Positions 4,590 through 45,440 of a stretch of DNA of 64,000 nucleotides are shown here, piece after piece. The position numbers and the translations under genes are program-made. The notes beneath the pieces were generated by a model, which saw only the letters and a list, made by a program, of their open reading frames with translations, was not told the origin of the DNA and did no database searches. The stretch comes from an uncultured bacterium (GTDB taxonomy: Bacteria > Verrucomicrobiota > Kiritimatiellia > RFP12 > UBA1067): contig CACZCD010000001.1 of the NCBI GenBank assembly GCA_902779565.1, forward strand, positions 3,929-67,928. The letters are read 5' to 3'. How positions within the stretch are numbered: position 1 is the first letter of the stretch; the number at the start of each line of letters is the position of its first letter.

Positions 4590-4624
4590 AGTCTCCTTGA
4601 CGGTCAGTTGGTAGTTGATAGTTG

Positions 4625-4782
4625 GTGGTTGATTTGTCTCACGCAGAGGCGCAGAGGACGCAGAGAGAAATTTCGGAGTTGTGACTCCGCTCAAAAAATA
4701 ACATGGATTCCACCTTTCCACTTTTCCACCTTTCCACCATTCCACCTTTCCACTTTTCCACCTTTCAACCTTTCAACTTTTG
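4625..4782. repeat. Tandem-repeat hairpin element copy 1: CA-rich arm (4625-4655) and purine arm (4708-4782) around a spacer carrying GCAGAGG x3 and a small hairpin
   Basis: Plus-strand arms: gttggtagttgatagttggtggttg ... ccacctttccacttttccacctttccaccattccacctttccacttttccacctttcaacctttcaac. The arms are imperfectly complementary (GTTGAWAG units pair with CTTTCMAC units). Confidence 0.8.
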
Positions 4783-7436: not shown

Positions 7437-7660
7437 GGCGCTTGTGCTTGTGTTTGTTGCCAGTCCGTGGCCGCGTCCGTTGTAGCCCGTTGCCTGTCCG
7501 TTAGGCGTCCGTATTAGCCCGTGTGAAGTCCGTAATCTGCCTGAAGCCTGTCCATGATATGTCCGTGGGTAGTCCGTGGTGTGTCCGTCTATGGGAGGGC
7601 GAGTGTCCTCGTGAAACGCCTCAAGTCCGTAATGCGTCCTTCTCGTATCCGTGTGAAGAA
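7437..7660 (+). repeat. Array R1: about 17 copies of GTCCGT (variants GCCCGT, GTCCTC, ATCCGT) phased at 10-12 bp (mean ~11 bp). It is an inverted copy of block B of R2.
   Basis: ccagtccgtgg ccgcgtccgtt gtagcccgttg cctgtccgtta ggcgtccgtat ... The first ~60 bp (ggcgcttgtgcttgtgtttgttgccagtccgtggccgcgtccgtt) is the near-exact reverse complement of 23225-23285. Confidence 0.85.
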
Positions 7661-7765: not shown

Positions 7766-8833
7766 TTATATCGAGACGACAGTCACCGTCACCGGCGAAG
7801 AGGTGTGATCCGCACCGCCGCTGTGGCGCGTCACCGTGACCGAAACCTCGGAATTGTCCAGTACATCGTCGAGTCCGGTGGGCCACTCGGACTTCAAGTA
7901 CACATCGGTCATCTCGTGTACGCTTCCCCAGACCTCCGCACCGTCCTCGCGGGTGAATTTCACCGACAACTCTGAGCCGTCATACCCGAAGTTGCGCCCA
8001 GAGATCATGACTTCCTCTCCCTTGATGAGCTGCCCCGGTATGGCACCCGCAGCCGTAGAGACGATTGAGGTCACCACCGGTGTCAGATCCGGTCCGGGCG
8101 GGATCGCCGCCGCCTTGACCGTGACCTTGTGCAGAGCCGTGACGAGCGGAGCCGTGGGGTCGAGACCGTGCGAGACGAGCCGCACGTAGTATGTCCCCGC
8201 CGATACCGCCGAGGCGAGCGTGCAGATGATCCGCTGGCCGTCCTCGGTGGAGACCACCGTGATGTCTGCGACCTTGGTCAGTCCGTCCGCCGCAACGAGC
8301 GCAAGGGATTCGTCCTCGCCGTCCGGCACCGTGAGATCGATGCCCGCAATGCGGAACTCCTTCAGTCCGTCGATCAGGCGGTAGGTCTCGGACGCGAGAT
8401 CCATGACAGAACTGATCTTCACGTTGCCGTTCACCGCTTCCACCCCGAGGCTTGTCGGTGCTATGCCGGACACCGCATCGCGGATGTCCTGTGAGAGCGT
8501 CGCGCCGATGTAGAGCGTGTTGCGCGGGGCGCGGAACTCGTCGTCCTCGCTGTCGAACGCCCCGCCAATCATCGGATAGAGCGACACCGCGCCCATGTTG
8601 ATGCGTACGACATCGTCCGCGATCTTCTCGGCGGCAAACTCATAGAACGCGTTCAGGAAGTACTGCGCCGTAGCGCGGGTCATGAACGTGCCCCTGTCGA
8701 GCATCCGCTGGAGGATGTTGTCGTAGGCGAGCGAGCCAATCGGAACGGCCACGCCAAGATACGGAGCCTTCGCCGCCGTCGAAGTGCCGTTACGCACGAG
8801 ACGGTAGCCGACTTTCATTGTCTTCGTTGACAT
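7766..8833 (-). CDS. HU-like DNA-binding domain protein of the Bacteroidetes type (HU fold N-terminus + Ig-like/DUF4469-type C-terminal extension), paralog A
   Basis: 355 aa. It is paralogous to the next gene (RINMGAVSLYPMIGGAFDSEDDEFRAPRNTLYIGATL vs RINLGQLTTGFAIRGAFMSEDEAFDPERHQLIATIRTL). The N-terminal pattern resembles Bacteroides histone-like proteins. Confidence 0.5.
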   Translation of the reverse strand: MSTKTMKVGYRLVRNGTSTAAKAPYLGVAVPIGSLAYDNILQRMLDRGTFMTRATAQYFLNAFYEFAAEKIADDVVRINMGAVSLYPMIGGAFDSEDDEFRAPRNTLYIGATLSQDIRDAVSGIAPTSLGVEAVNGNVKISSVMDLASETYRLIDGLKEFRIAGIDLTVPDGEDESLALVAADGLTKVADITVVSTEDGQRIICTLASAVSAGTYYVRLVSHGLDPTAPLVTALHKVTVKAAAIPPGPDLTPVVTSIVSTAAGAIPGQLIKGEEVMISGRNFGYDGSELSVKFTREDGAEVWGSVHEMTDVYLKSEWPTGLDDVLDNSEVSVTVTRHSGGADHTSSPVTVTVVSI

Positions 8834-8850: not shown

Positions 8851-9558
8851 TTATTCCGCCTTCACGACAATGTTCTTCACCTTTGCCGTTGCGGGCTTCA
8901 GCGATTCGCGCATCCCGTTGCGGCAGCTCACGACAAGCGTGTACGTGCCGGGTTCAGGCGGCTCCGCGAAGACGCAGTCGATGGTCTGGCTATCGCTCCG
9001 CTCCACTGTCGCCGTGGCGACGATGTCGCCCGTCTTGGCGTTGACGAGCCACACGCCCTCGTCCGGGTTGTCCGGCGAGATGCCGAGTTTCTGACCCTGA
9101 ATGAGCACGCGATTCGTGCCGGTGATCTCGGAAACGCGCTTCGTGACGGCGTCCATCACGGCGGCGACCGTACAGGTGAGACCGAGCGTGACGTTCTCCG
9201 GCAGCACCGCCGACATCGCACTCTTGAGCGGATCGAGCGTGCGTATCGTCGCGATGAGCTGGTGCCGTTCCGGATCGAACGCCTCATCCTCGCTCATGAA
9301 CGCGCCGCGTATCGCGAAGCCCGTGGTGAGCTGTCCGAGGTTAATGCGGTAGCCCGCAATCAGCTGAGTCATGATCTCCTCCGAGAGCGCGTCGAGGAAG
9401 TACTTCCACAGCGATGCGTCCTGCTTGGTGCGCTCCGCAAGACGCTCCGCGAGTTCATCGCGCCCGATCGTGCCGTTCGTCTGAACGTGGGCTGTATAGA
9501 CCACGCGATCCGTGATTGCGTCAGGAACACGCGTCAGGGAGAATACGATATTGTCCAT
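8851..9558 (-). CDS. HU-like DNA-binding domain protein of the Bacteroidetes type, paralog B
   Basis: 235 aa. TNGTIGRDELAERLAERT matches the ...TGTIDxDELAEEIAE... helix of Bacteroidetes HU-like proteins, and the C-terminal region is beta-rich. Confidence 0.55.
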   Translation of the reverse strand: MDNIVFSLTRVPDAITDRVVYTAHVQTNGTIGRDELAERLAERTKQDASLWKYFLDALSEEIMTQLIAGYRINLGQLTTGFAIRGAFMSEDEAFDPERHQLIATIRTLDPLKSAMSAVLPENVTLGLTCTVAAVMDAVTKRVSEITGTNRVLIQGQKLGISPDNPDEGVWLVNAKTGDIVATATVERSDSQTIDCVFAEPPEPGTYTLVVSCRNGMRESLKPATAKVKNIVVKAE

Positions 9559-9571
9559 TGCATTCCCCCTT

Positions 9572-9763
9572 TCACTTGTTCACCTGAATGCCGAACGGCA
9601 CGCCAAGCCCCACAACCCCGATTGTGTGTGCGGAGTCCGCCGGAGTCGTGACGGCGGTGCATCCCGCAAGCGCCGCACCTGCGACGCCCGCAACGGCCGC
9701 AACTGCGGCCCGTACCGCCTCCTTCAGGAAGGCGATCAGCTTGTTCTTCAGCTTGCTTTTCAT
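9572..9763 (-). CDS. Small lipoprotein (64 aa) with signal peptide and lipobox LAGC
   Basis: MKSKLKNKLIAFLKEAVRAAVAAVAGVAGAALAGCTAV.... The ORF-track start at 9952 is probably over-extended. Confidence 0.4.
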   Translation of the reverse strand: MKSKLKNKLIAFLKEAVRAAVAAVAGVAGAALAGCTAVTTPADSAHTIGVVGLGVPFGIQVNK

Positions 9764-9876: not shown

Positions 9877-10374
9877 TCAGAAACCTTCCGCCGCCCACAA
9901 CGCCTTGAACCGCGAAATGAATCCCGGCAGAACATGACGCCGGAACGTCCACATGGCGATGCCGATCTCCGCCGCGACCTTCTTCCAGTTCAGCAGCTTC
10001 ATGTAAAGTTCGGCAATCCGGCGATCCTCCGGCGAAAGCCGAGCGACGGTGTGGCGCACCGCAAGGCGGTCACGCTCCCGGACACGCTGACGCGACGACA
10101 TGGCGTACATGTCCCGCACGGCCTCAACGGCAGGCTCTCCACACCGCATCTGCCACGGAATGAGGGACCGAAAATTGCGCCGCCCTTCGTTCTGCGCCTC
10201 GTTCAAAGCCAAGGAAAGCGCAGCCTTCCGACCGCGCTCCCCTTTATCCTTATTATAGTGCAACCTCCGCAGTATCATGTTCTCGACATCCGATTCGTCG
10301 AGTCCATACGGACGATGCTCACGCACATAGCGCCTCGACCAATGCCGAGCGAAGTCGATTGATTTCCGGTCCAT
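9877..10374 (-). CDS. Sigma-70 region-4-like / LuxR-type HTH DNA-binding regulator
   Basis: C-terminal SPEDRRIAELYMKLLNWKKVAAEIGIAMWTFRRH is a region-4-type HTH. It is 165 aa with no clear region 2. Confidence 0.45.
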   Translation of the reverse strand: MDRKSIDFARHWSRRYVREHRPYGLDESDVENMILRRLHYNKDKGERGRKAALSLALNEAQNEGRRNFRSLIPWQMRCGEPAVEAVRDMYAMSSRQRVRERDRLAVRHTVARLSPEDRRIAELYMKLLNWKKVAAEIGIAMWTFRRHVLPGFISRFKALWAAEGF

Positions 10375-10479
10375 GCCAATGTCCTTTTTCTGGTGGAGGT
10401 CCGGCCCATTCCAGACACTCCCAAGACATTGGCATCGACTTCGCCATCAGGTTCGGTTTCAACGAAAACAATTCAAAAA

Positions 10480-10625
10480 ACTTAGCAGGGTGCGACACCC
10501 GGACATCGCACCCTGCAATCACCAAACTCCGCAAGGTGCGACACGGACACTTCGCACCCTGCGACTCTCTCTTGTTGCACCCTGCAACATCGCGCTATCG
10601 CACCTTGCCACTTTCGCCCGTCATA
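10480..10625. promoter_or_regulatory. Iteron-like operator array: two good and two degenerate ~46-bp direct repeats, each with an internal dyad GGTGCGA-N10-TCGCACC
   Basis: GCAGGGTGCGAcacccggacaTCGCACCCTGC, then caaGGTGCGAcacggacactTCGCACCCTGCGAC, then gcaccctgcaac...tcgcacc and ccctgcgac. It sits upstream of the sigma-like gene in a 430-bp noncoding gap. Confidence 0.4.
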
Positions 10626-10803
10626 CCCTGCGACTCAAAAAACCTCTTTTAGGGCACCCAAACCACCGCCCCCGCATCATCGCGCCGCCCCTCCGCTCAT
10701 GCATTGAAGGCCCCTGTTCTCCACCGTTTTAACAAAGGAGGGCCGCCACCGACATTGGCCTGCCTTCCGAATTCATTGGTGCAATAGCTTGTTCATTCAT
10801 AGT

Positions 10804-23004: not shown

Positions 23005-23290
23005 GAAGACATCCAACGGGCTTCTGACGGACACACCACGGACAGGTTACGGTCTTGCCAAGGACATCTGACGGACGGCACACGGACACACTACGGACAA
23101 GTTACGGACTGGCCACGGACGCGCAACAGACTTCATACGGGCTTAGAACGGACGAGCCACGGACAAAATACGGGCGGAACACGGACTAAAACGGACTTCT
23201 GATGGACAGCATACGGACGGATCACGGGCTACAAACGGACGCGGCCACGGACTGGCAACAAACACAAGCACAAGCGCCTTTCCCGCGGCG
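23005..23290 (+). repeat. Array R2 block B: about 22 copies of ACGGAC (variants ACGGGC, ATGGAC) phased at ~11 bp. The terminal ~60 bp is the inverted duplicate of the R1 start.
   Basis: ctgacggacac accacggacag gttacggtctt ... ctacggacaag ttacggactgg ccacggacgcg ... aaacggacgcggccacggactggcaacaaacacaagcacaagcgcc. Confidence 0.85.
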
Positions 23291-25346: not shown

Positions 25347-25360
25347 GTTAATCCTTTTTT

Positions 25361-25430
25361 AGTTGATAGTTGATAATTGATGATTGGTGGTCTAGTCTCA
25401 ACCTTTCCACTTTTCCACCTTCCCACTTTT
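25361..25430. repeat. Tandem-repeat hairpin element copy 2, in the 5'UTR of the esterase gene
   Basis: Plus strand: agttgatagttgataattgatgattggtgg ... ctcaacctttccacttttccaccttcccactttt. The arrangement is the same as copy 1, with the CA-rich arm ending 8 nt before the AAAAAAGGA RBS on the mRNA. Confidence 0.8.
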
Positions 25431-33792: not shown

Positions 33793-36700
33793 TTAGGGCT
33801 TTACGCGCACGGTTTCAGCGGTTGAGTGTGCCGTGAACTCGGGCGCGTACATGCATTGGATCGTCGCAAGCCCGCCGATAAACACGCCGCGCTGCTGCAC
33901 GCGATACGACGTCTCAAGAACGAACACGCCCTTGTTGAGACAGTCGATGTAGTAGTGCGTGGCCGTATCCTTCGTGGACTGATAATAACCCACGCCATCG
34001 CGCCAGCGGTACGACGACAGCACATCCTCCGGCTCCGCGCACGCAGGCCGCTCGTCAGAGAGATGCACGAACTCGTACGTGCGGTCGCTCGTGATCTCAA
34101 GCCGCGCCACGATCTCGTCGCCCGGCTCAAGCACGCCATCGATCGACGTGAGCCGTGTCCCATCCGCGCCCTTCACCTTCTTGTAGTACTTCTTCTCCAC
34201 CCGCAACTCCTTCGGCTCGTGCGCGCGTACCTTAAGGACATCCTCAAAGTACGTCCAGTGGACGCCGCCCCACGCAACGCCCTTCTCGCCCGCACCCGTA
34301 AACGTGATCTCGCCCATCTCGGGCCTGATCTGCGCCGCGGCGTAGCGGTGCGAATACATCCCCGTGCCCGCCTCGGCGTTCGCCACCGGCACCTTCTCGC
34401 CCGCCAGCGTGACCTCGGCCAGCTTGTCGCCCGCCAGCAGATCCGTCCCGCCGCCCAGAAGGAGCGCATAGATCGCGTCCACCGTCGCGGCGGTCGTCGT
34501 CCAATCCTGCGTCTGCTTCTGCTTCAGGAGCCACACGTTGCAGGCATCTGCGCTCTCCTCGTCGCGCGTCACCTCGCGGAACGCCTCAATGATCAGCGCC
34601 TGCGTCGAGACGGGCGCGGCGAACACGCTGCACGAGAAGAAGGACGACCTCTTCCAGTATAGGCCGAGTTCCTCTGAAAGGACGCCCCGCTCCTTGATCG
34701 ACGCCATGATCTTCCGCGCGAACTTTTCCTCGCCCATGCGCTTCAAGGCGATGGCCGCCAGCGCCTGCGAGCTGAGGCCGAAGTCCGTCCACTCCTCCTT
34801 GAGATGCTTGACGAAGAGCTTTGCCGGCTGCGCATCCTTCGCGGCGGCGACGCCCTTGAACGTATGGAGGTAGAGCCAGCGAATGTCGAAGCCATCCACA
34901 TGGAACTTGATGCCCAGTCTCTTCGCCTCCTTGAGCCGCTCCTTCACATCCTCAGAAACGAACGCGTCAAGTGCTTCCACCGCCTCCGCAAAGAAGTCGG
35001 GATACGTCCTCTGCGCCAGGAAGTTGAGCCGCGCGAACCCCGTCAGGATATAGAGCGAGATGCCGGGCGCGGACGGCCCGCCCGGGAACCACGGCCAGAG
35101 TCCGCCGCCACACCGCGCGAGTCGCAACTTCTCAAGGCACTTTTCCTGCTCACCCGCCAGACGGTCGGCGGCGAAGAGTTCACCAAGCCGCGCGCGGGCT
35201 GCGCTTTCGTGCGCCGCCTCACGGACCCACGGCGTCGCTTCAAGCGCAATCGCCTTGAGGTGTTCATCCGTCTCAAGCGGGCTCTTCAGCGTTTCGCCGC
35301 CCGCCGCCTTCCACGCGTCGAACGTGGCGCGGATGCGCGGATCGGCGTTTGCGATGTACTGTCCCAGCGCGTTCGCATAGTAGCGGCTGAACGTCTGCTC
35401 GCAGCATTCGTGCGGGAACTCCATCAGGTACGGAAGCGACAACACCGCGTACCACGCCGGACGCGACACGGCGCGCACCGTGAGATCCTGATGGCGGACC
35501 GTCTCAGACCCCTTGCTCGCCAGCAGGTTCTCGAACCGAAACGATTTCGTCGCCGCGCCACGCACGTTGAGCTGCACGGCCTCGCGCACCATCACGCGGC
35601 GCGCCAGCACCGGCAGCACGCCCTCTTCGCCGTCCGCGAACGCCGCGCCCTTCGCGCGCGCGACATATTTGAGATAGCCGCACCCATCCGGGATCCGCAA
35701 CGGGAACTCGAACGTCTTCGATTCGTGCGGAACCAGGTTGAAAGGTTGAAAGGTTGAAGCGTTGAAAGGTTGAAGCGTTGACGGGTTGGCATTTTCAGCA
35801 GAACTTTTCAACTCTTCAACCTTCAACTCTACAACTCCCTGCTGCGGCGCGTCCTCGGTGTTCGTCACCTTGACGGCAAAGAAGAAGTTGTCACCTTCGC
35901 GCACGAAACGCGGTGCGTTCGGTTCGCACATGAGCGGCTTCGTCGTCACGATCTCGTTGTTGCGGAAGATGTCGCCGCGAAGCGCGTTGTCATGCGCGAC
36001 CATCAGGAACTTCCAGCCCGTGAGCGCGTCCGGCACCGTGAACGAGAACGACACCTTCCCGTCCGCATCCGTCTCCAGGTTCGGGAAGAAGAACGCCGTC
36101 TCCTTCAGGTTCGTGCGCGGCGGCGCATCCGGTTCCTTCTCGGACTTCGCGGATGGTGCAGCACCACACACCGCCACCGTTTCTTCTTCCAAGACGCACC
36201 TTTCATTCATCACGCCCATCCCGGCCGCGGCGGACTTGCAGACCATGCCGCCCCGTCTTCGCAGTCTGCCATACTCGTACAGCGACCGCCACGAAGGCCA
36301 TCGGAAGTTGGAGAACCACGTGGACTTGCTTGGGAACCGACCGCCGAGATCCATCAGCTCCGTGGTCGTATTCTGGATTGCCGGACTTCCGAGCCAGCGC
36401 GTCCAGGGCGTAAAGTGACTTGAAAAACCGAGCGACACATCATGCCATTTGTACGCATCGAGCGAACGGTCGTACATGAAAGCGAGCACTTCCGCAGGGC
36501 CCGACACCTTGAACGTCCATATTTCCTTGTTGCCGGGATTGAGCTTGCTCGTCAGGTGCTCCGCCGTGATATCCAGATACTTGTTGTCCCACGGCACATT
36601 CACGCAGGTGCTGTCGCAATAGATGCGGTTCTCGCGCACGAAGGTGGTCTCAATCCTCACTTCGCCGCGATGCTCCTCCTGGATCGGCAGCTCGAAAAAC

Positions 36701-43523: not shown

Positions 43524-45440
43524 TCACAACGCGTCTGTCATGAATGTATGCGCCACCGTCCAAGGCGCGCTCTTGATCCGTTTCATGCGCATCAAAAGCG
43601 AAAGGCGGTGGCGTTCAAGCTCCGCATCGCCCCGTGCCGGCAGTTCGCCGAGACGGCGTCGGATCGCATCGCCCCATAGCCGCCGCAGAAAATCCTCAAG
43701 AATGCGCGCTGGGTCCAACTCGGAAAGCGATGCGCGCTCCCGCGACAGGAACACGCCCTCCAAAAGCGCACCATCCGCCGCGGAAAGCGTCCCGCGGAGT
43801 TCCGCCATCGCCTGCTCGTTCCCGCGCGTCTCCTGCACATAGGCGTGAACGAACCCGCACGTCAACGCATGCTGGAAAATCGTGTCGGGCGCATAGGATT
43901 CCAGCATCTCCGTCAGCTGCCCATCCGGTCCGTTTCCGAACAGAAACTCCATGAGTGCCATCTCTGTCCGAGGCGGCGGATTGTTCTCCGGAGCCGCAGC
44001 GTCTTCCGAGGGTTGAGAGTTGGGAGTTGAGGGTTGAGGGCTTGCCGCGCCGAAGCCTTCGGCGGAGGCGGGTTGCGTACTTCCTCTTCCCTCTTCCCTC
44101 TTCCCTCTTCCCTCTTCCCTCTTCCCTTTCTCTAGATCCTCCTCAAGGGCGGCGACCGGTATCTTCAGAAGTGTGGAAGCCTCCTGCAGCAAACTGGCGC
44201 GCATGACCGCGCTCGAACTGCACCTGACCAACGCCAAGACAGCGCGCGCCGCGCGGGAGATCGCATCGTAGGAGTCAGGTGTCTGCTCCATCGCGCGGGC
44301 GATGCGTACTTGAAAGGCGACCAGCGACTCAGCCGAATCAAGGCAGGCCTGAAACGCCGCCGGACCTTTCGTGCGAAGCAGAGAATCTGGGTCTTCGCCC
44401 GGCGGAAGACTTGCCACGCGCACCAACAATCCGGCGGCCAGCATCTCGCCGCCCGTGCGAATCGCCGCCTTCTGTCCAGCGGCATCGGCGTCAAAGACCA
44501 GCACGGCGGCATCGGCGACCTTCTTCAGGATCTGGACATGCTCCTTCGTGAAGGCCGTCCCCTGCGACGCGATCGCACGGGAGAATCCCGCCGCATGGCA
44601 GCGGATCACATCGATCTGCCCTTCGCAGACGATGGCCTCGCGAACGGGCTTGGCGTTGGCGATCTTCCCCGCCGCAAGATCGAACGCATAGAGAACATCC
44701 GACTTCCGGAAGATGAGCGTCTCGGGCGAATTGACGTACTTGCCGCCGCGCATCTTCGTCTTATCCGTCTCAAGCGTCCGTCCCGAGAACGCGATCACGC
44801 GTCCAGACCGGTCACGGATCGAGAACATGACGCGTCCGGCGAACGGCGAGTACCAGCGTCCGCCCGGATACTTCGGCGGACGCAGCACGCCGGCCGCCTC
44901 AAGCTCTTCGGTGGTGAAATGATGCTTCTCCGCCCATTTGAGCATCGCCTCGGCCTGCTGCGGCGCGTAGCCGATCTGGAACTGCTCCGCGATCTCGTCC
45001 GGGATGTCGCGCGACGCGAGATAGTTGCGCGCACGCGCCGCCTCAGCGGCCGTCTTGAGGCAACGCCGGTAGAACGCCGCCAACTCGGCGTGGAGCACAA
45101 GTTGGCGCTTGCGCGCGGCCGCTTGCGGATCGCTATTCGTCTCCTCGATGGTGATGTTCGCCGCCGCCGCCAGCTTCTTCGCCGCCTCCACGAAGCCCAG
45201 CCCCTCGTACTTCATCACGAACTTGATCACGTCGCCGGACTCGCCGCAACCGAAGCAGTGGTAGAATCCCTTCGCCGGCTGGATGTTGAAACTCGGCGTC
45301 TTTTCATGATGAAACGGGCAGCAGGCCTTGTACGACCCACCTGCCCGTTTCACTTGGATCCCGTAGCTGGCGATCAAATCTGCAAGGTCCGTACGGGCCT
45401 TGATCTCTTCGATCGTCTGCTCCGAAATGCCGAAGGCCAT
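43524..45440 (-). CDS. dnaG: DNA primase
   Basis: Zinc-ribbon CPFHHEKTPSFNIQPAKGFYHCFGCGESGD, TOPRIM region (EGQIDVIRCHAAG...DADAAGQKA). 638 aa including a low-complexity insertion derived from a repeat element. Confidence 0.9.
   Translation of the reverse strand: MAFGISEQTIEEIKARTDLADLIASYGIQVKRAGGSYKACCPFHHEKTPSFNIQPAKGFYHCFGCGESGDVIKFVMKYEGLGFVEAAKKLAAAANITIEETNSDPQAAARKRQLVLHAELAAFYRRCLKTAAEAARARNYLASRDIPDEIAEQFQIGYAPQQAEAMLKWAEKHHFTTEELEAAGVLRPPKYPGGRWYSPFAGRVMFSIRDRSGRVIAFSGRTLETDKTKMRGGKYVNSPETLIFRKSDVLYAFDLAAGKIANAKPVREAIVCEGQIDVIRCHAAGFSRAIASQGTAFTKEHVQILKKVADAAVLVFDADAAGQKAAIRTGGEMLAAGLLVRVASLPPGEDPDSLLRTKGPAAFQACLDSAESLVAFQVRIARAMEQTPDSYDAISRAARAVLALVRCSSSAVMRASLLQEASTLLKIPVAALEEDLEKGKREEGRGKREEGRGSTQPASAEGFGAASPQPSTPNSQPSEDAAAPENNPPPRTEMALMEFLFGNGPDGQLTEMLESYAPDTIFQHALTCGFVHAYVQETRGNEQAMAELRGTLSAADGALLEGVFLSRERASLSELDPARILEDFLRRLWGDAIRRRLGELPARGDAELERHRLSLLMRMKRIKSAPWTVAHTFMTDAL
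44010..44125. repeat. Tandem-repeat hairpin element copy 4, in-frame inside dnaG
   Basis: Plus strand: gggttgagagttgggagttgagggttgaggg - spacer with gccgaagccttcggc hairpin - (cctcttc)x5. It encodes ...KGKREEGRGKREEGRGSTQPASAEGFGAASPQPSTPNSQPS... Confidence 0.8.

What the first reader, a model, noticed from the sequence alone, without database searches (positions are those of the whole stretch)
10480..10625. Iteron-like operator array upstream of a sigma-region-4-like regulator
Two nearly identical ~35-bp units lie 46 bp apart, followed by two decayed copies: GCAGGGTGCGAcacccggacaTCGCACCCTGC and aAGGTGCGAcacggacactTCGCACCCTGCGAC. Each is an inverted repeat of GGTGCGA with a 10-bp spacer, the geometry of a dimeric HTH protein binding successive major grooves. 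Direct repeats of a dyad are the hallmark of autoregulated repressor operators or replication-initiator iterons. The spacers contain CGGACA, echoing the ACGGAC unit of the R1/R2 arrays, which hints at a shared recognition element. The 430-bp gap is noncoding; the ORFs predicted there are Arg/Pro-rich artefacts.
Basis: seen in the sequence. Interest (0 to 1): 0.55.

Follow-up and report, generated by a model that had tools for sequence, protein, structure and literature searches.

The report
Phased repeat array upstream of sigma operon
Seven copies of a 13-base near-palindrome, spaced exactly 23 bases apart, sit just upstream of the promoter of an unusual sigma-factor operon in uncultured gut-type bacteria; they are conserved and most likely a docking array for an unidentified regulator, and the last two pairs of copies also form a transcription stop signal.

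Summary
Window 10483-10633 holds seven units in exact 23-bp register (centres 10489 to 10627). Each carries the core TCGCA-GGG-TGCGA, five in one orientation and two in the other.

The array recurs in 18 related loci. It keeps the same phase and the same distance to the start codon. It is better conserved than fourfold-degenerate sites of the neighbouring gene, and its only indel is one whole 23-nt unit.

The adjacent 165-aa protein is a divergent two-domain ECF-type sigma factor. A 24-bp segment (GAAAC or TAAAT, 16 nt, GTCGAY) between array and leader is swapped together with the sigma region-4 coding part. That marks a self-recognised promoter, so the array centres lie about -64 to -202 from the start site.

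The array sequence itself comes in at least two, possibly three, interchangeable classes.

My best reading is a DNA operator array for a regulator encoded elsewhere. The promoter-proximal dyad doubles as an intrinsic terminator. A purely RNA-level role is not excluded. Replication iterons are rejected.

The parts
10621..10633 (-). Unit 1 (distal), gene-strand TCGCAGGGTATGA, centre 10627
10598..10610 (-). Unit 2, gene-strand TGGCAAGGTGCGA, centre 10604
10575..10587 (-). Unit 3, symmetric variant TTGCAGGGTGCAA, centre 10581. TTGCA/TGCAA and TCGCA/TGCGA alternate among relatives.
10552..10564 (-). Unit 4, TCGCAGGGTGCGA, centre 10558; 5' arm of hairpin A
10529..10541 (-). Unit 5, opposite orientation (TCGCACCTTGCGG on the gene strand), centre 10535; 3' arm of hairpin A
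10506..10518 (-). Unit 6, TTGCAGGGTGCGA, centre 10512; 5' arm of hairpin B
10483..10495 (-). Unit 7 (promoter-proximal), opposite orientation (TCGCACCCTGCTA), centre 10489; 3' arm of hairpin B
10475..10516 (-). Terminator-like element. Hairpin B (10516..10485, -24.1 kcal/mol as RNA) is followed by UAAG and U6 (10480..10475). A run of 5-8 T follows it in the class I relatives.
10434..10460 (-). Inferred ECF-type promoter: GAAAC (10460..10456), 16 nt, GTCGAT (10439..10434). The -35 part has two variants (GAAAC or TAAAT) that covary with the sigma region-4 class.
   Evidence: inference, no transcription start mapped
10369..10441 (-). 5' leader hairpin (-38.6 kcal/mol) pairing GCCAAUGUC with GACAUUGGC. 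It covers the ribosome-binding site and start codon. Two sequence variants keep the fold.
   Evidence: (I1)
9877..10374 (-). 165-aa divergent ECF-like sigma factor (sigma2 + sigma4 by fold). No Pfam hit; small family.
9572..9763 (-). 63-aa lipoprotein-like ORF (lipobox LAGC), conserved 80-94% in relatives
8851..9558 (-). HU1: HU-DNA_bdg + DUF4469 (Ig-like) protein, 235 aa
7766..8833 (-). HU2: HU-DNA_bdg + weak, sub-threshold DUF4469 and TIG matches, 355 aa

Best explanation
The array is a cis-regulatory module that acts mainly at the DNA level. Seven phased 23-bp units each present a 13-bp near-palindrome. They lie directly upstream of the self-recognised promoter of an ECF-type sigma operon (sigma-like, 63-aa lipoprotein-like protein, two HU-Ig proteins). 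Unit centres fall at about -64, -87 and so on to -202 from the inferred transcription start.

I infer that a sequence-specific regulator encoded outside the part of the operon that could be compared binds the units cooperatively. It would sit on a fixed helical lattice and set how strongly the sigma promoter fires. Exchanging the array class would rewire the operon to a different regulator.

In the class found in the window, the two promoter-proximal unit pairs also fold as RNA hairpins in transcripts arriving from the co-directional upstream gene. The last hairpin plus its U-tract acts as an intrinsic terminator that insulates the sigma promoter.

Shown here: the array, its phase, its conservation, the sequence classes, the promoter covariation, and the terminator-like anatomy. 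Inferred: protein binding, the sign of regulation, the transcription start, and actual termination.
For: **Phase and position.** Seven units are exactly 23 bp apart. The same register and the same distance to the ATG hold in 18 class I loci, in class II (L001, L018, L019) and in class III (L014). The only length change inside the array is one extra whole 23-nt unit, in L006, L011 and L016.

**Selection.** Mean pairwise identity among 13 non-redundant class I loci is 0.90 for motif columns and 0.77 for spacer columns. Measured against the window, whole-array identity is 77-84% where fourfold-degenerate sites of the adjacent HU1 gene are 59-73% identical.

**Motif.** Stacking all units gives a defined motif, T-N-GCA-R-GGTGCGA, with variable flanks. 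The motif occurs nowhere else in the window or in any fetched locus.

**Distant relatives.** Distant members of the sigma-like family carry their own phased palindromes. L029 has 3 x 22 bp of CGTCASTGACG. L030 has 5 x 22 bp alternating AGATGCGCATCT and AAGTCCTAGGACTT, placed downstream of separate strong terminators. L027 has 2 x 23 bp.

**Promoter placement.** L020 and L021 are 90-94% identical in array, T-tract, leader, the first 300 nt of sigma, and downstream. They are only 50% identical in the 24-bp segment at -89..-66 and 62% in the sigma 3' third. The segment variant matches the region-4 class in all but one locus, L008, whose sigma protein is chimeric. The sigma-like fold matches ECF sigma2 and sigma4.

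**Terminator role.** Hairpin B folds at -24.1 kcal/mol and is followed by U6. In L026 it is the only terminator-like site between the upstream gene's stop and the sigma gene. Upstream genes are co-directional in the main clade. In the two long hairpins, G.U-type mismatches occupy 8 columns against 1 column for A.C-type on the gene strand.
Against: - No binding protein is identified.
- Nothing in the comparable part of the operon covaries with array class.
- The motif is not found upstream of any other gene in the 64-kb window, so no autoregulated trans-factor gene is in view.
- The transcription start is not mapped. The invariant GCCAATGTC that pairs with the start-codon region suggests that some transcripts start further upstream than the inferred promoter would give.
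- Modest covariation and the wobble bias fit an RNA function for units 4-7.
- Class II L018 has no long hairpin or terminator inside the array, so the dual role is not general.
- Class III rests on one contig, L014, whose sigma reading frame stops after three codons.
Confidence: 0.45

Rival explanations
1. Purely RNA-level element. The array is transcribed as the 3' end of the upstream gene or from its own promoter. It would work as a terminator or attenuator, or as a repeat-rich small RNA. Units 4-7 form four successive mutually complementary segments (4:5 and 6:7, or alternatively 5:6). Units 1-3 would be decoy arms or binding sites for an RNA-binding protein that decides whether the 6:7 terminator forms.
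For: - Hairpins A and B are 96% paired across 18 loci, and 4 pairs change on both sides.
- G.U-type mismatches outnumber A.C-type 8 columns to 1 on the gene strand in the long hairpins.
- A U-tract follows hairpin B in the class I loci.
- In L026 and L015 the array starts 32-76 nt after the upstream stop codon, so it must be transcribed there.
- Units 5 and 6 are also complementary (I10).
- There is a sub-threshold full-length match to Rfam PrrB_RsmZ: 20.1 bits, E 0.009-0.019 for this stretch only.
Against: - RNA gives no reason for an exact 23-nt phase, for loops of constant length, or for whole-unit indels only.
- Class II L018/L019 lack long hairpins and a U-tract in the array.
- L030 carries perfect loop-less palindromes placed after separate terminators.
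- The small hairpins of units 1 and 3 show no wobble bias.
- No promoter is recognisable upstream of unit 1.
- The Rfam score is far below the gathering score, and nothing passed it in the whole window.
- The GGG centres lie in stems and lack the GGA loops of that family.
Confidence: 0.25
2. One reading: the array is the autoregulatory operator of the operon's own products. Either the sigma-like protein binds it through its helix-turn-helix, or the HU-like proteins do. The HU-like proteins might recognise palindrome or cruciform structure rather than sequence.
For: - The array is always linked to this operon, and distant sigma-like homologues also have phased palindromes upstream.
- The HU-like partner recurs: a weak HU-DNA_bdg match follows the L034 homologue.
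- Structure-specific binding would explain why array sequence can be swapped without any protein change. That HU proteins prefer distorted or cruciform DNA is from my own knowledge.
- The HU2 N-terminus could not be compared for classes II and III.
Against: - Between L019 (class II) and L020 (class I), the sigma-like gene, the 63-aa gene and the start of HU1 are 77-95% identical with no co-swapped segment; HU1 residues 1-185 also lack class-specific changes across the aligned loci.
- Sigma region 4 covaries with the -35-like segment instead.
- The unit's central GG and its orientation are conserved, which argues for sequence reading rather than structure reading.
- The published analysis of HU-HIG proteins argues they are unlikely to be sequence-specific factors, and that the Ig domain occupies part of the DNA path (PMC5499826).
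Confidence: 0.12
3. Replication or partition iterons, or the end of a mobile element. The units would bind an initiator, a centromere-binding protein or a transposase.
For: - Seven 22-23-bp direct units followed by inverted copies next to a gene start resemble iteron plasmids and type II partition sites (my own knowledge).
- The module lies in different genomic contexts in different contigs.
Against: - The adjacent protein has a sigma fold, not an initiator fold.
- No partition ATPase, integrase or transposase is in the operon.
- Cumulative GC skew is monotonic across the site.
- The plasmid and phage collections give no match, and viral contigs have no exact match to the dyad.
- Flanks are ordinary chromosomal genes such as prfA, rpmE and a glycyl-radical activase.
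Confidence: 0.04
4. Functionless repeat produced by slippage or duplication of a terminator hairpin.
For: L001 contains two identical adjacent 23-nt units and L006, L011 and L016 have an extra unit. Unit duplication therefore does happen.
Against: - Unit-specific variants and spacers are conserved across loci above the fourfold-site level.
- The orientation pattern is fixed.
- Phase and distance to the promoter are kept in all classes.
Confidence: 0.04

Closest known systems
Iterons plus inverted-repeat operator of theta plasmids (R6K, pPS10, pSC101, F); from my own knowledge
   Same: Several 22-23-bp direct units in phase, followed by inverted copies of the same motif next to the promoter of the downstream gene. 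The number of units (seven in R6K) is similar.
   Different: - The downstream gene is a sigma-like protein, not a winged-helix initiator.
- It does not covary with the units.
- The context is chromosomal, with no origin signature and no sequence match in plasmid records.
Centromere-like arrays of type II partition loci (parC of R1 and pSK41, bound by ParR); from my own knowledge
   Same: Phased short repeats upstream of an operon that serve as operator. Cooperative binding on a helical lattice gives strict spacing (20 bp in pSK41).
   Different: No ParM/ParA or ribbon-helix-helix gene is present. In those systems the repeats flank or overlap the promoter; here all units lie upstream of the -35.
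Multi-site operators of Lrp/AsnC-type (feast/famine) regulators; from my own knowledge
   Same: 13-bp palindromes of 5-3-5 form (abcde-NNN-edcba) repeated at regular intervals upstream of a promoter and read by an oligomer that wraps DNA.
   Different: The centre is GGG rather than A/T-rich and is itself conserved and oriented. Spacing is 23 bp rather than about 30. No such regulator was identified.
Rho-independent terminator
   Same: Units 6 and 7 form a G+C-rich 12-bp hairpin followed by a U-tract, downstream of a co-directional gene.
   Different: A terminator explains 2 of 7 units. It does not explain the phase, the direct units or the other sequence classes.
CsrB/RsmZ-type protein-sponge small RNAs (Rfam RF00166)
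   Same: A series of short hairpins built on UCGCAGG...GCGA-like units, ending in a terminator. There is a weak full-length model match.
   Different: - The score is 20.1 against a gathering score of 44.
- There are no GGA loops.
- Most motif copies are inside long stems.
- The other array classes lack the motif.

Membership tests
Plasmid-type iterons | Tandem direct repeats of about 17-23 bp in constant phase | tested here: met
   Seven units, 23.0-bp spacing
Plasmid-type iterons | Adjacent gene encodes the initiator that binds them (winged-helix Rep), with covariation between protein and repeat | tested here: not met
Plasmid-type iterons | Lies at a replication origin (skew switch, plasmid or phage context) | tested here: not met
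   Cumulative GC skew is monotonic. No plasmid or phage matches. Chromosomal neighbours.
Autoregulatory operator of the adjacent gene product | Dyad-symmetric sites | tested here: met
   11-12-bp arms with a 10-bp spacer, and 13-bp near-palindromic units
Autoregulatory operator of the adjacent gene product | Specificity covaries with the adjacent DNA-binding protein | tested here: not met
   L019 against L020: arrays are unrelated (47-54% identity), while the sigma-like gene, the 63-aa gene and the start of HU1 are 77-95% identical; HU1 residues 1-185 show no class-specific changes. HU2 was not comparable.
Autoregulatory operator of the adjacent gene product | Sites overlap the promoter core | tested here: not met
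   The nearest unit centre is about 31 bp upstream of the centre of the inferred -35. The promoter itself is inferred.
Phased multi-site operator for a trans-acting oligomeric regulator | Constant helical phase and constant distance to the promoter under selection | tested here: met
   Same register in all classes; only a whole-unit indel; motif columns 0.90 and spacer columns 0.77 mean pairwise identity among class I loci; array 77-84% against 59-73% at fourfold sites when compared with the window
Phased multi-site operator for a trans-acting oligomeric regulator | A protein binds the units | not testable with these tools
   Needs EMSA, DNA pull-down or DAP-seq
Rho-independent terminator (units 6-7) | Stable G+C-rich hairpin directly followed by a U-tract on the transcribed strand | tested here: met
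   -24.1 kcal/mol, z -5.0; UAAG then U6; a run of 5-8 T in the class I loci
Rho-independent terminator (units 6-7) | Transcription actually ends there | not testable with these tools
   No transcript data available
ECF sigma promoter (for the segment between array and leader) | -35 AAC-type element, 16-17 nt, -10 GTC/CGT-type element | tested here: met
   GAAAC-N16-GTCGA at 10435-10460(-), the only match in the window
ECF sigma promoter (for the segment between array and leader) | -35 element covaries with sigma region 4 | tested here: met
   Concordant in all but one locus (L008, whose protein is chimeric). Co-swapped in L020 against L021 while the intervening DNA stays 90-94% identical.
ECF sigma factor (adjacent protein) | Sigma2 and sigma4 domains recognised by curated sequence models | tested here: inconclusive
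CsrB/RsmZ-type small RNA | Rfam model at or above the gathering score | tested here: not met
   20.1 bits against 44. Nothing passed the gathering score in the whole window.
CsrB/RsmZ-type small RNA | GGA motifs exposed in hairpin loops | tested here: not met
   Centres are GGG or AGG. In units 4-7 they are paired inside long stems.
trp-type attenuator | Four successive segments allowing 1:2 and 3:4 or alternatively 2:3, with a U-tract after 3:4 | tested here: met
   Units 4-7; complementarities I5, I7 and I10; U6
trp-type attenuator | Upstream promoter and a sensing device (leader peptide or binding protein), conserved across relatives | tested here: not met
   No promoter-like site upstream of unit 1. 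Class II L018 lacks the segments.

The most novel reading that the evidence does not exclude
The array could be an exchangeable 'address cassette'. At least two, possibly three, unrelated motif classes occupy the same seven-slot, 23-bp lattice in front of a near-identical operon made of an orphan self-activating ECF-like sigma factor and HU-Ig proteins.

Either each class recruits a different, still unknown filament-forming regulator, or the operon's own HU-Ig proteins read the phased palindromes by shape rather than by sequence. In the second case this would be the first cis target and the first regulatory circuit known for the enigmatic HU-HIG family.
Probability: 0.15. Interest if true: 0.75.

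Novelty: new variant of a known kind. Interest (0 to 1): 0.5.

Why it matters
**A handle on two unstudied protein families.** HU-Ig (HU-HIG) proteins are abundant and have no known target. The published analysis reports that they almost entirely lack conserved gene linkage (PMC5499826). Here they sit in a conserved operon with an unannotated ECF-like sigma family and a well-defined cis module. This gives an experimental entry point: pull down whatever binds the array.

**A natural example of promoter and sigma changing together.** The data show a -35 segment and sigma region 4 swapped together by recombination. That is of interest for sigma-factor specificity and for designing orthogonal expression parts.

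**A cautionary case.** The same inverted repeats plausibly serve both DNA-level and RNA-level functions.

Tried and rejected
- **Rfam.** Nothing passed gathering thresholds in the whole window. The permissive scan gave only a sub-threshold PrrB_RsmZ match, which I kept as a lead only.
- **Sigma-70-type promoter scan.** Nothing in the gap, nor in L026.
- **Sigma-54 reading (by eye).** The conserved GGC...GC segment loses its GG or its spacing in several loci.
- **Bacteroidetes-type TAnnTTTG reading (by eye).** It fits only one promoter variant.
- **Region 4 as the array reader.** Rejected. Near-identical region 4 occurs with class I (L020) and class II (L018) arrays.
- **HU1 or the 63-aa protein as readers.** Rejected.
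- **Defence-system and phage libraries.** PADLOC gave no hits. PHROGs gave only weak hits, the best E 0.0015.
- **Plasmid, phage and viral-contig searches for the array.** No match.
- **Scan of the window for other arrays of 18-29-bp period.** Nothing at my threshold. The scan also failed to list the target array, so it was too strict to count as a negative.
- **Fold energy of the whole arrays.** It is strongly below shuffles on both strands, so it does not discriminate DNA from RNA or one strand from the other.
- **A first shuffle script timed out**.
- **Literature searches** for iteron-like repeats with ECF sigma, and for Kiritimatiellae rumen sigma factors, found nothing.
- **Other targets of the inferred promoter.** GAAAC-N15-17-GTCGA occurs only once in the window.
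- **Limits reached.** Contigs of class II and III loci end before HU2.
Full report
**1. What is in the sequence**

- GCAGGGTGCGA / TCGCACCCTGC lies at 10485-10495 and 10506-10516, with perfect complementarity and a 10-nt spacer.
- CGCAAGGTGCGA / TCGCACCCTGCG lies at 10530-10541 and 10552-10563, 92% complementary, with a 10-nt spacer.

The repeat finder also places five 37-nt copies in register with spacings of 46, 23, 23 and 23. The unit is itself a near-palindrome, TCGCA-GGG-TGCGA. 'Direct' and 'inverted' copies therefore differ mainly in a GGG or CCC centre.

The seven centres (10489, 10512, 10535, 10558, 10581, 10604, 10627) are exactly 23 bp apart. At one mismatch or fewer the 11-mer occurs seven times in 64 kb, six of them here. 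Shuffles give 2.18 +/- 1.42, and none of 100 reaches seven.

**2. The neighbourhood**

All genes here lie on the minus strand, so I read the array on that strand. In that direction the order is:
- the array;
- an A/T-rich tract;
- a conserved 5' leader;
- the 165-aa ORF;
- a 63-aa lipoprotein-like ORF (9572-9763);
- two HU-DNA_bdg proteins, the first with a DUF4469 Ig-like domain and the second with only sub-threshold DUF4469 and TIG matches (8851-9558 and 7766-8833).

The family is small, with 80 representatives at E of 0.001 or below among 1.84 billion proteins, many of them fragments.

**3. Relatives**

I fetched 35 loci in total: one genome contig (a Verrucomicrobia MAG, Tb.RUG.75), 13 metagenome loci, and further contigs found by exact-protein look-up. 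The gene order sigma-like, 63-aa ORF, HU1, HU2 is conserved.

Read on the gene strand, 18 loci carry the same array. They share the same 23-nt register, and the last unit starts at -127 or -128 from the ATG. This includes loci whose sigma-like protein is only 49-56% identical to the query (L008, L012, L013).

Across the 337-column alignment the only indel inside the array is one extra whole 23-nt unit, in L006, L011 and L016.

Conservation figures:
- Among 13 non-redundant class I loci, mean pairwise identity is 0.90 in motif columns.
- In the same set it is 0.77 in spacer columns.
- Measured against the window, whole-array identity is 77-84%, where fourfold-degenerate sites of HU1 are 59-73% identical.

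The array is therefore under purifying selection, and the motif is under the strongest constraint.

Stacking all units after orienting them gives T-N-GCA-R-GGTGCGA. The central GG is nearly invariant and the flanks are variable. The orientation pattern + + + + - + - is fixed.

**4. Interchangeable sequence classes**

Three independent contigs (L001, L018, L019) have the same lattice filled with an unrelated motif, TCAATC-S-GATTGA. One contig (L014) has five GAACCATGCAA units plus one inverted copy. L014's sigma reading frame stops after three codons, so class III needs confirmation.

More distant members of the sigma-like family also have phased palindromes upstream:
- L029 has three CGTCA-S-TGACG units every 22 bp.
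- L030 has five units every 22 bp, alternating AGATGCGCATCT and AAGTCCTAGGACTT. They lie downstream of two separate strong terminators.
- L027 has two AACYGTTACAC units 23 bp apart.

Phased palindromes are thus a recurring property of this gene family. The particular motif is not.

**5. Who reads the array?

L019 (class II) and L020 (class I) are unrelated in the array, at 47-54% identity. From -60 through the sigma-like gene, the 63-aa gene and the start of HU1 they are 77-95% identical, and no segment is swapped along with the array. HU1 residues 1-185 show no class-specific changes. Near-identical sigma region 4 sequences occur with both class I and class II arrays.

The array sequence is therefore not read by the sigma-like protein, the small protein or HU1. 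HU2 could not be compared because the class II and III contigs end too early.

**6. Where the promoter is**

Between the array and the leader lies a 24-bp segment with two variants:
- ...GCGAAACCGAACCTGA.GGC...
- ...GCGTAAATCTGGCGGCAAGGGC...

It is followed by the most invariant block of the whole region, AAGTCGAYGCCAATGTC.

The variants track the two classes of the sigma C-terminal helix-turn-helix in all but one locus. The classes are ELYMKLLNWKKVAAEIGIAMWTFR and DFMELLSWQKVAARRGMSEGSFR. The exception, L008, has a chimeric protein. The intervening markers, namely the leader variant and a PHLEAQAY insertion, are shuffled relative to both.

The clearest case is L020 against L021:

| Segment | Identity |
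|---|---|
| Array | 91% |
| T-tract | 93% |
| -10 region plus leader | 94% |
| First 300 nt of sigma | 90% |
| Downstream | 90% |
| 24-bp segment (-89..-66) | 50% |
| Sigma 3' third | 62% |

Two non-adjacent pieces exchanged together point to functional coupling, in which region 4 recognises this segment as its -35 element.

The class differences (IAMWT against MSEGS) fall at the start of the predicted recognition helix, residues 138-142; helix 141-162 in the model. The geometry GAAAC-N16-GTCGA is ECF-like, a comparison from my own knowledge, and it occurs once in the window.

I therefore infer a self-recognised promoter with a start near -55 from the ATG. That places the array centres at roughly -64 to -202. 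The start is not mapped.

The invariant GCCAAUGUC pairs with GACAUUGGC at the start codon. The fold is -38.6 kcal/mol, and two sequence variants keep it. This suggests that longer transcripts also exist and would be translationally masked. That resembles the fold-back inhibition described for IS10, which I recall from my own knowledge. This part is inference.

**7. DNA level or RNA level?**

*For DNA:*
- The phase is exact and loop lengths are constant.
- Only whole-unit indels occur.
- The distance to the promoter is the same in unrelated sequence classes.
- Units 1-3 are conserved although they are not part of any long hairpin.
- L018 and L030 have arrays without RNA-type hairpins or terminators.

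*For RNA:*
- Hairpin A (units 4/5, -22 kcal/mol) and hairpin B (units 6/7, -24.1 kcal/mol) are 96% paired across loci, and four pairs change on both sides.
- In these two hairpins G.U-type mismatches occupy 8 columns against 1 for A.C-type on the gene strand. This asymmetry is not expected for duplex DNA.
- Hairpin B is followed by U6, with a run of 5-8 T in the class I loci, and it was called terminator-like.
- In L026 it is the only terminator-like site between the upstream gene's stop codon and the sigma gene. The array begins 32 nt after that stop.
- Upstream genes are co-directional in all main-clade loci with an annotated neighbour.

The small hairpins of units 1 and 3 show no wobble bias. 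Whole-array fold energies are low on both strands and do not discriminate.

My reading is that both levels are real in class I. The lattice is a DNA feature, and the last dyad also works as a terminator that shields the sigma promoter.

**8. Other ideas tested**

- *Replication or partition iterons.* The fold of the neighbour is wrong, the GC skew does not turn, and the plasmid and phage collections give no match (viral contigs have no exact match to the dyad). No partition or recombinase genes are present.
- *Sponge small RNA.* There is only a sub-threshold RsmZ match, 20.1 against 44 bits, and no GGA loops.
- *Defence or phage origin.* No support.

**9. Verdict**

This is a conserved, phased seven-unit array that forms part of a composite control region: array, promoter, masked leader. 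It precedes an unstudied operon of an ECF-like sigma factor and HU-Ig proteins.

The mechanism I commit to is cooperative docking of a regulator encoded outside the part of the operon that could be compared, on a 23-bp lattice upstream of a self-activated promoter. The proximal dyad doubles as an insulating terminator. My confidence is about 0.45.

A purely RNA-level function is the main rival, at about 0.25.

In kind this is a new variant of known phased operator arrays. Its unusual features are the interchangeable motif classes on a fixed lattice and the association with HU-HIG proteins, for which no cis target is known (PMC5499826).

Noticed in passing
L020 1504-1527 and 1893-2099 compared with L021 1223-1246 and 1612-1827; equivalent in window about 10440-10463 and 9877-10074: A 24-bp promoter segment and the region-4-coding third of the sigma-like gene are exchanged together between loci that are otherwise 90-94% identical. 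These look like natural orthogonal sigma and -35 pairs (GAAAC with ...NWKKVAAEIGIAMWTFR; TAAAT with ...SWQKVAARRGMSEGSFR).
   Followed up: yes
window 10369-10441 (minus strand): The 5' leader folds into a -38.6 kcal/mol hairpin that pairs GCCAAUGUC with GACAUUGGC and buries the ribosome-binding site and AUG. Two sequence variants of the leader keep the fold. It may silence transcripts that start upstream of the sigma promoter.
   Followed up: partly
window 7440-7640 (minus strand) and 23010-23290 (plus strand): Long arrays of ACGGAC recurring every 11 nt. Both end in the same tail of about 60 nt (…CTACAACGGACGCGGCCACGGACTGGCAACAAACACAAGCACAAGCGCCTTTCCCGCG). The first lies between the HU2 stop and the rpmE start.
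   Followed up: no
window 4606-4774, 25360-25430, 35735-35837, 44008-44127; also L010 1-75: Intergenic pairs of short tandem arrays of 7-8-nt units facing each other, for example GGTTGAAA xN then TTCAACTC xN, AGTTGAT xN then TTCCACCT x8, and GAGGGTT then CCTCTTC x6. This looks like a genome-wide repeat family. The TTCCACT array also flanks the module in L010.
   Followed up: no
L016 1124-2281 and L001 3045-3881 (opposite strand): An AAA_14/DUF4143 ATPase gene is inserted between the sigma-like gene and the 63-aa gene in L016. A similarly placed opposite-strand ORF follows the sigma gene in L001, though it was not checked against Pfam. Other loci lack it.
   Followed up: no
window 9572-9763 (minus strand): A 63-aa ORF with a signal peptide and lipobox (…ALAGC) is conserved at 80-94% identity in all relatives, between the sigma-like and HU genes. 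It could be a small lipoprotein partner of the sigma factor.
   Followed up: partly
L005 760-1053, L011 879-1178, L014 885-1106: Fragments of HU2 (residues about 115-243) follow the sigma gene directly, without the 63-aa and HU1 genes. These are either deletion variants or mis-assemblies. In L014 the sigma reading frame stops after three codons.
   Followed up: no
window 10484-10602 (minus strand): A sub-threshold but full-length match to Rfam PrrB_RsmZ (20.1 bits against a gathering score of 44). It is driven by UCGCAGG…GCGA-type hairpins and the terminal hairpin.
   Followed up: partly
all loci L002-L026: Most contigs carrying this operon are only 1-5 kb long and break near it, and many family members in the protein library are fragments. 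This suggests strain heterogeneity or several copies per genome.
   Followed up: no
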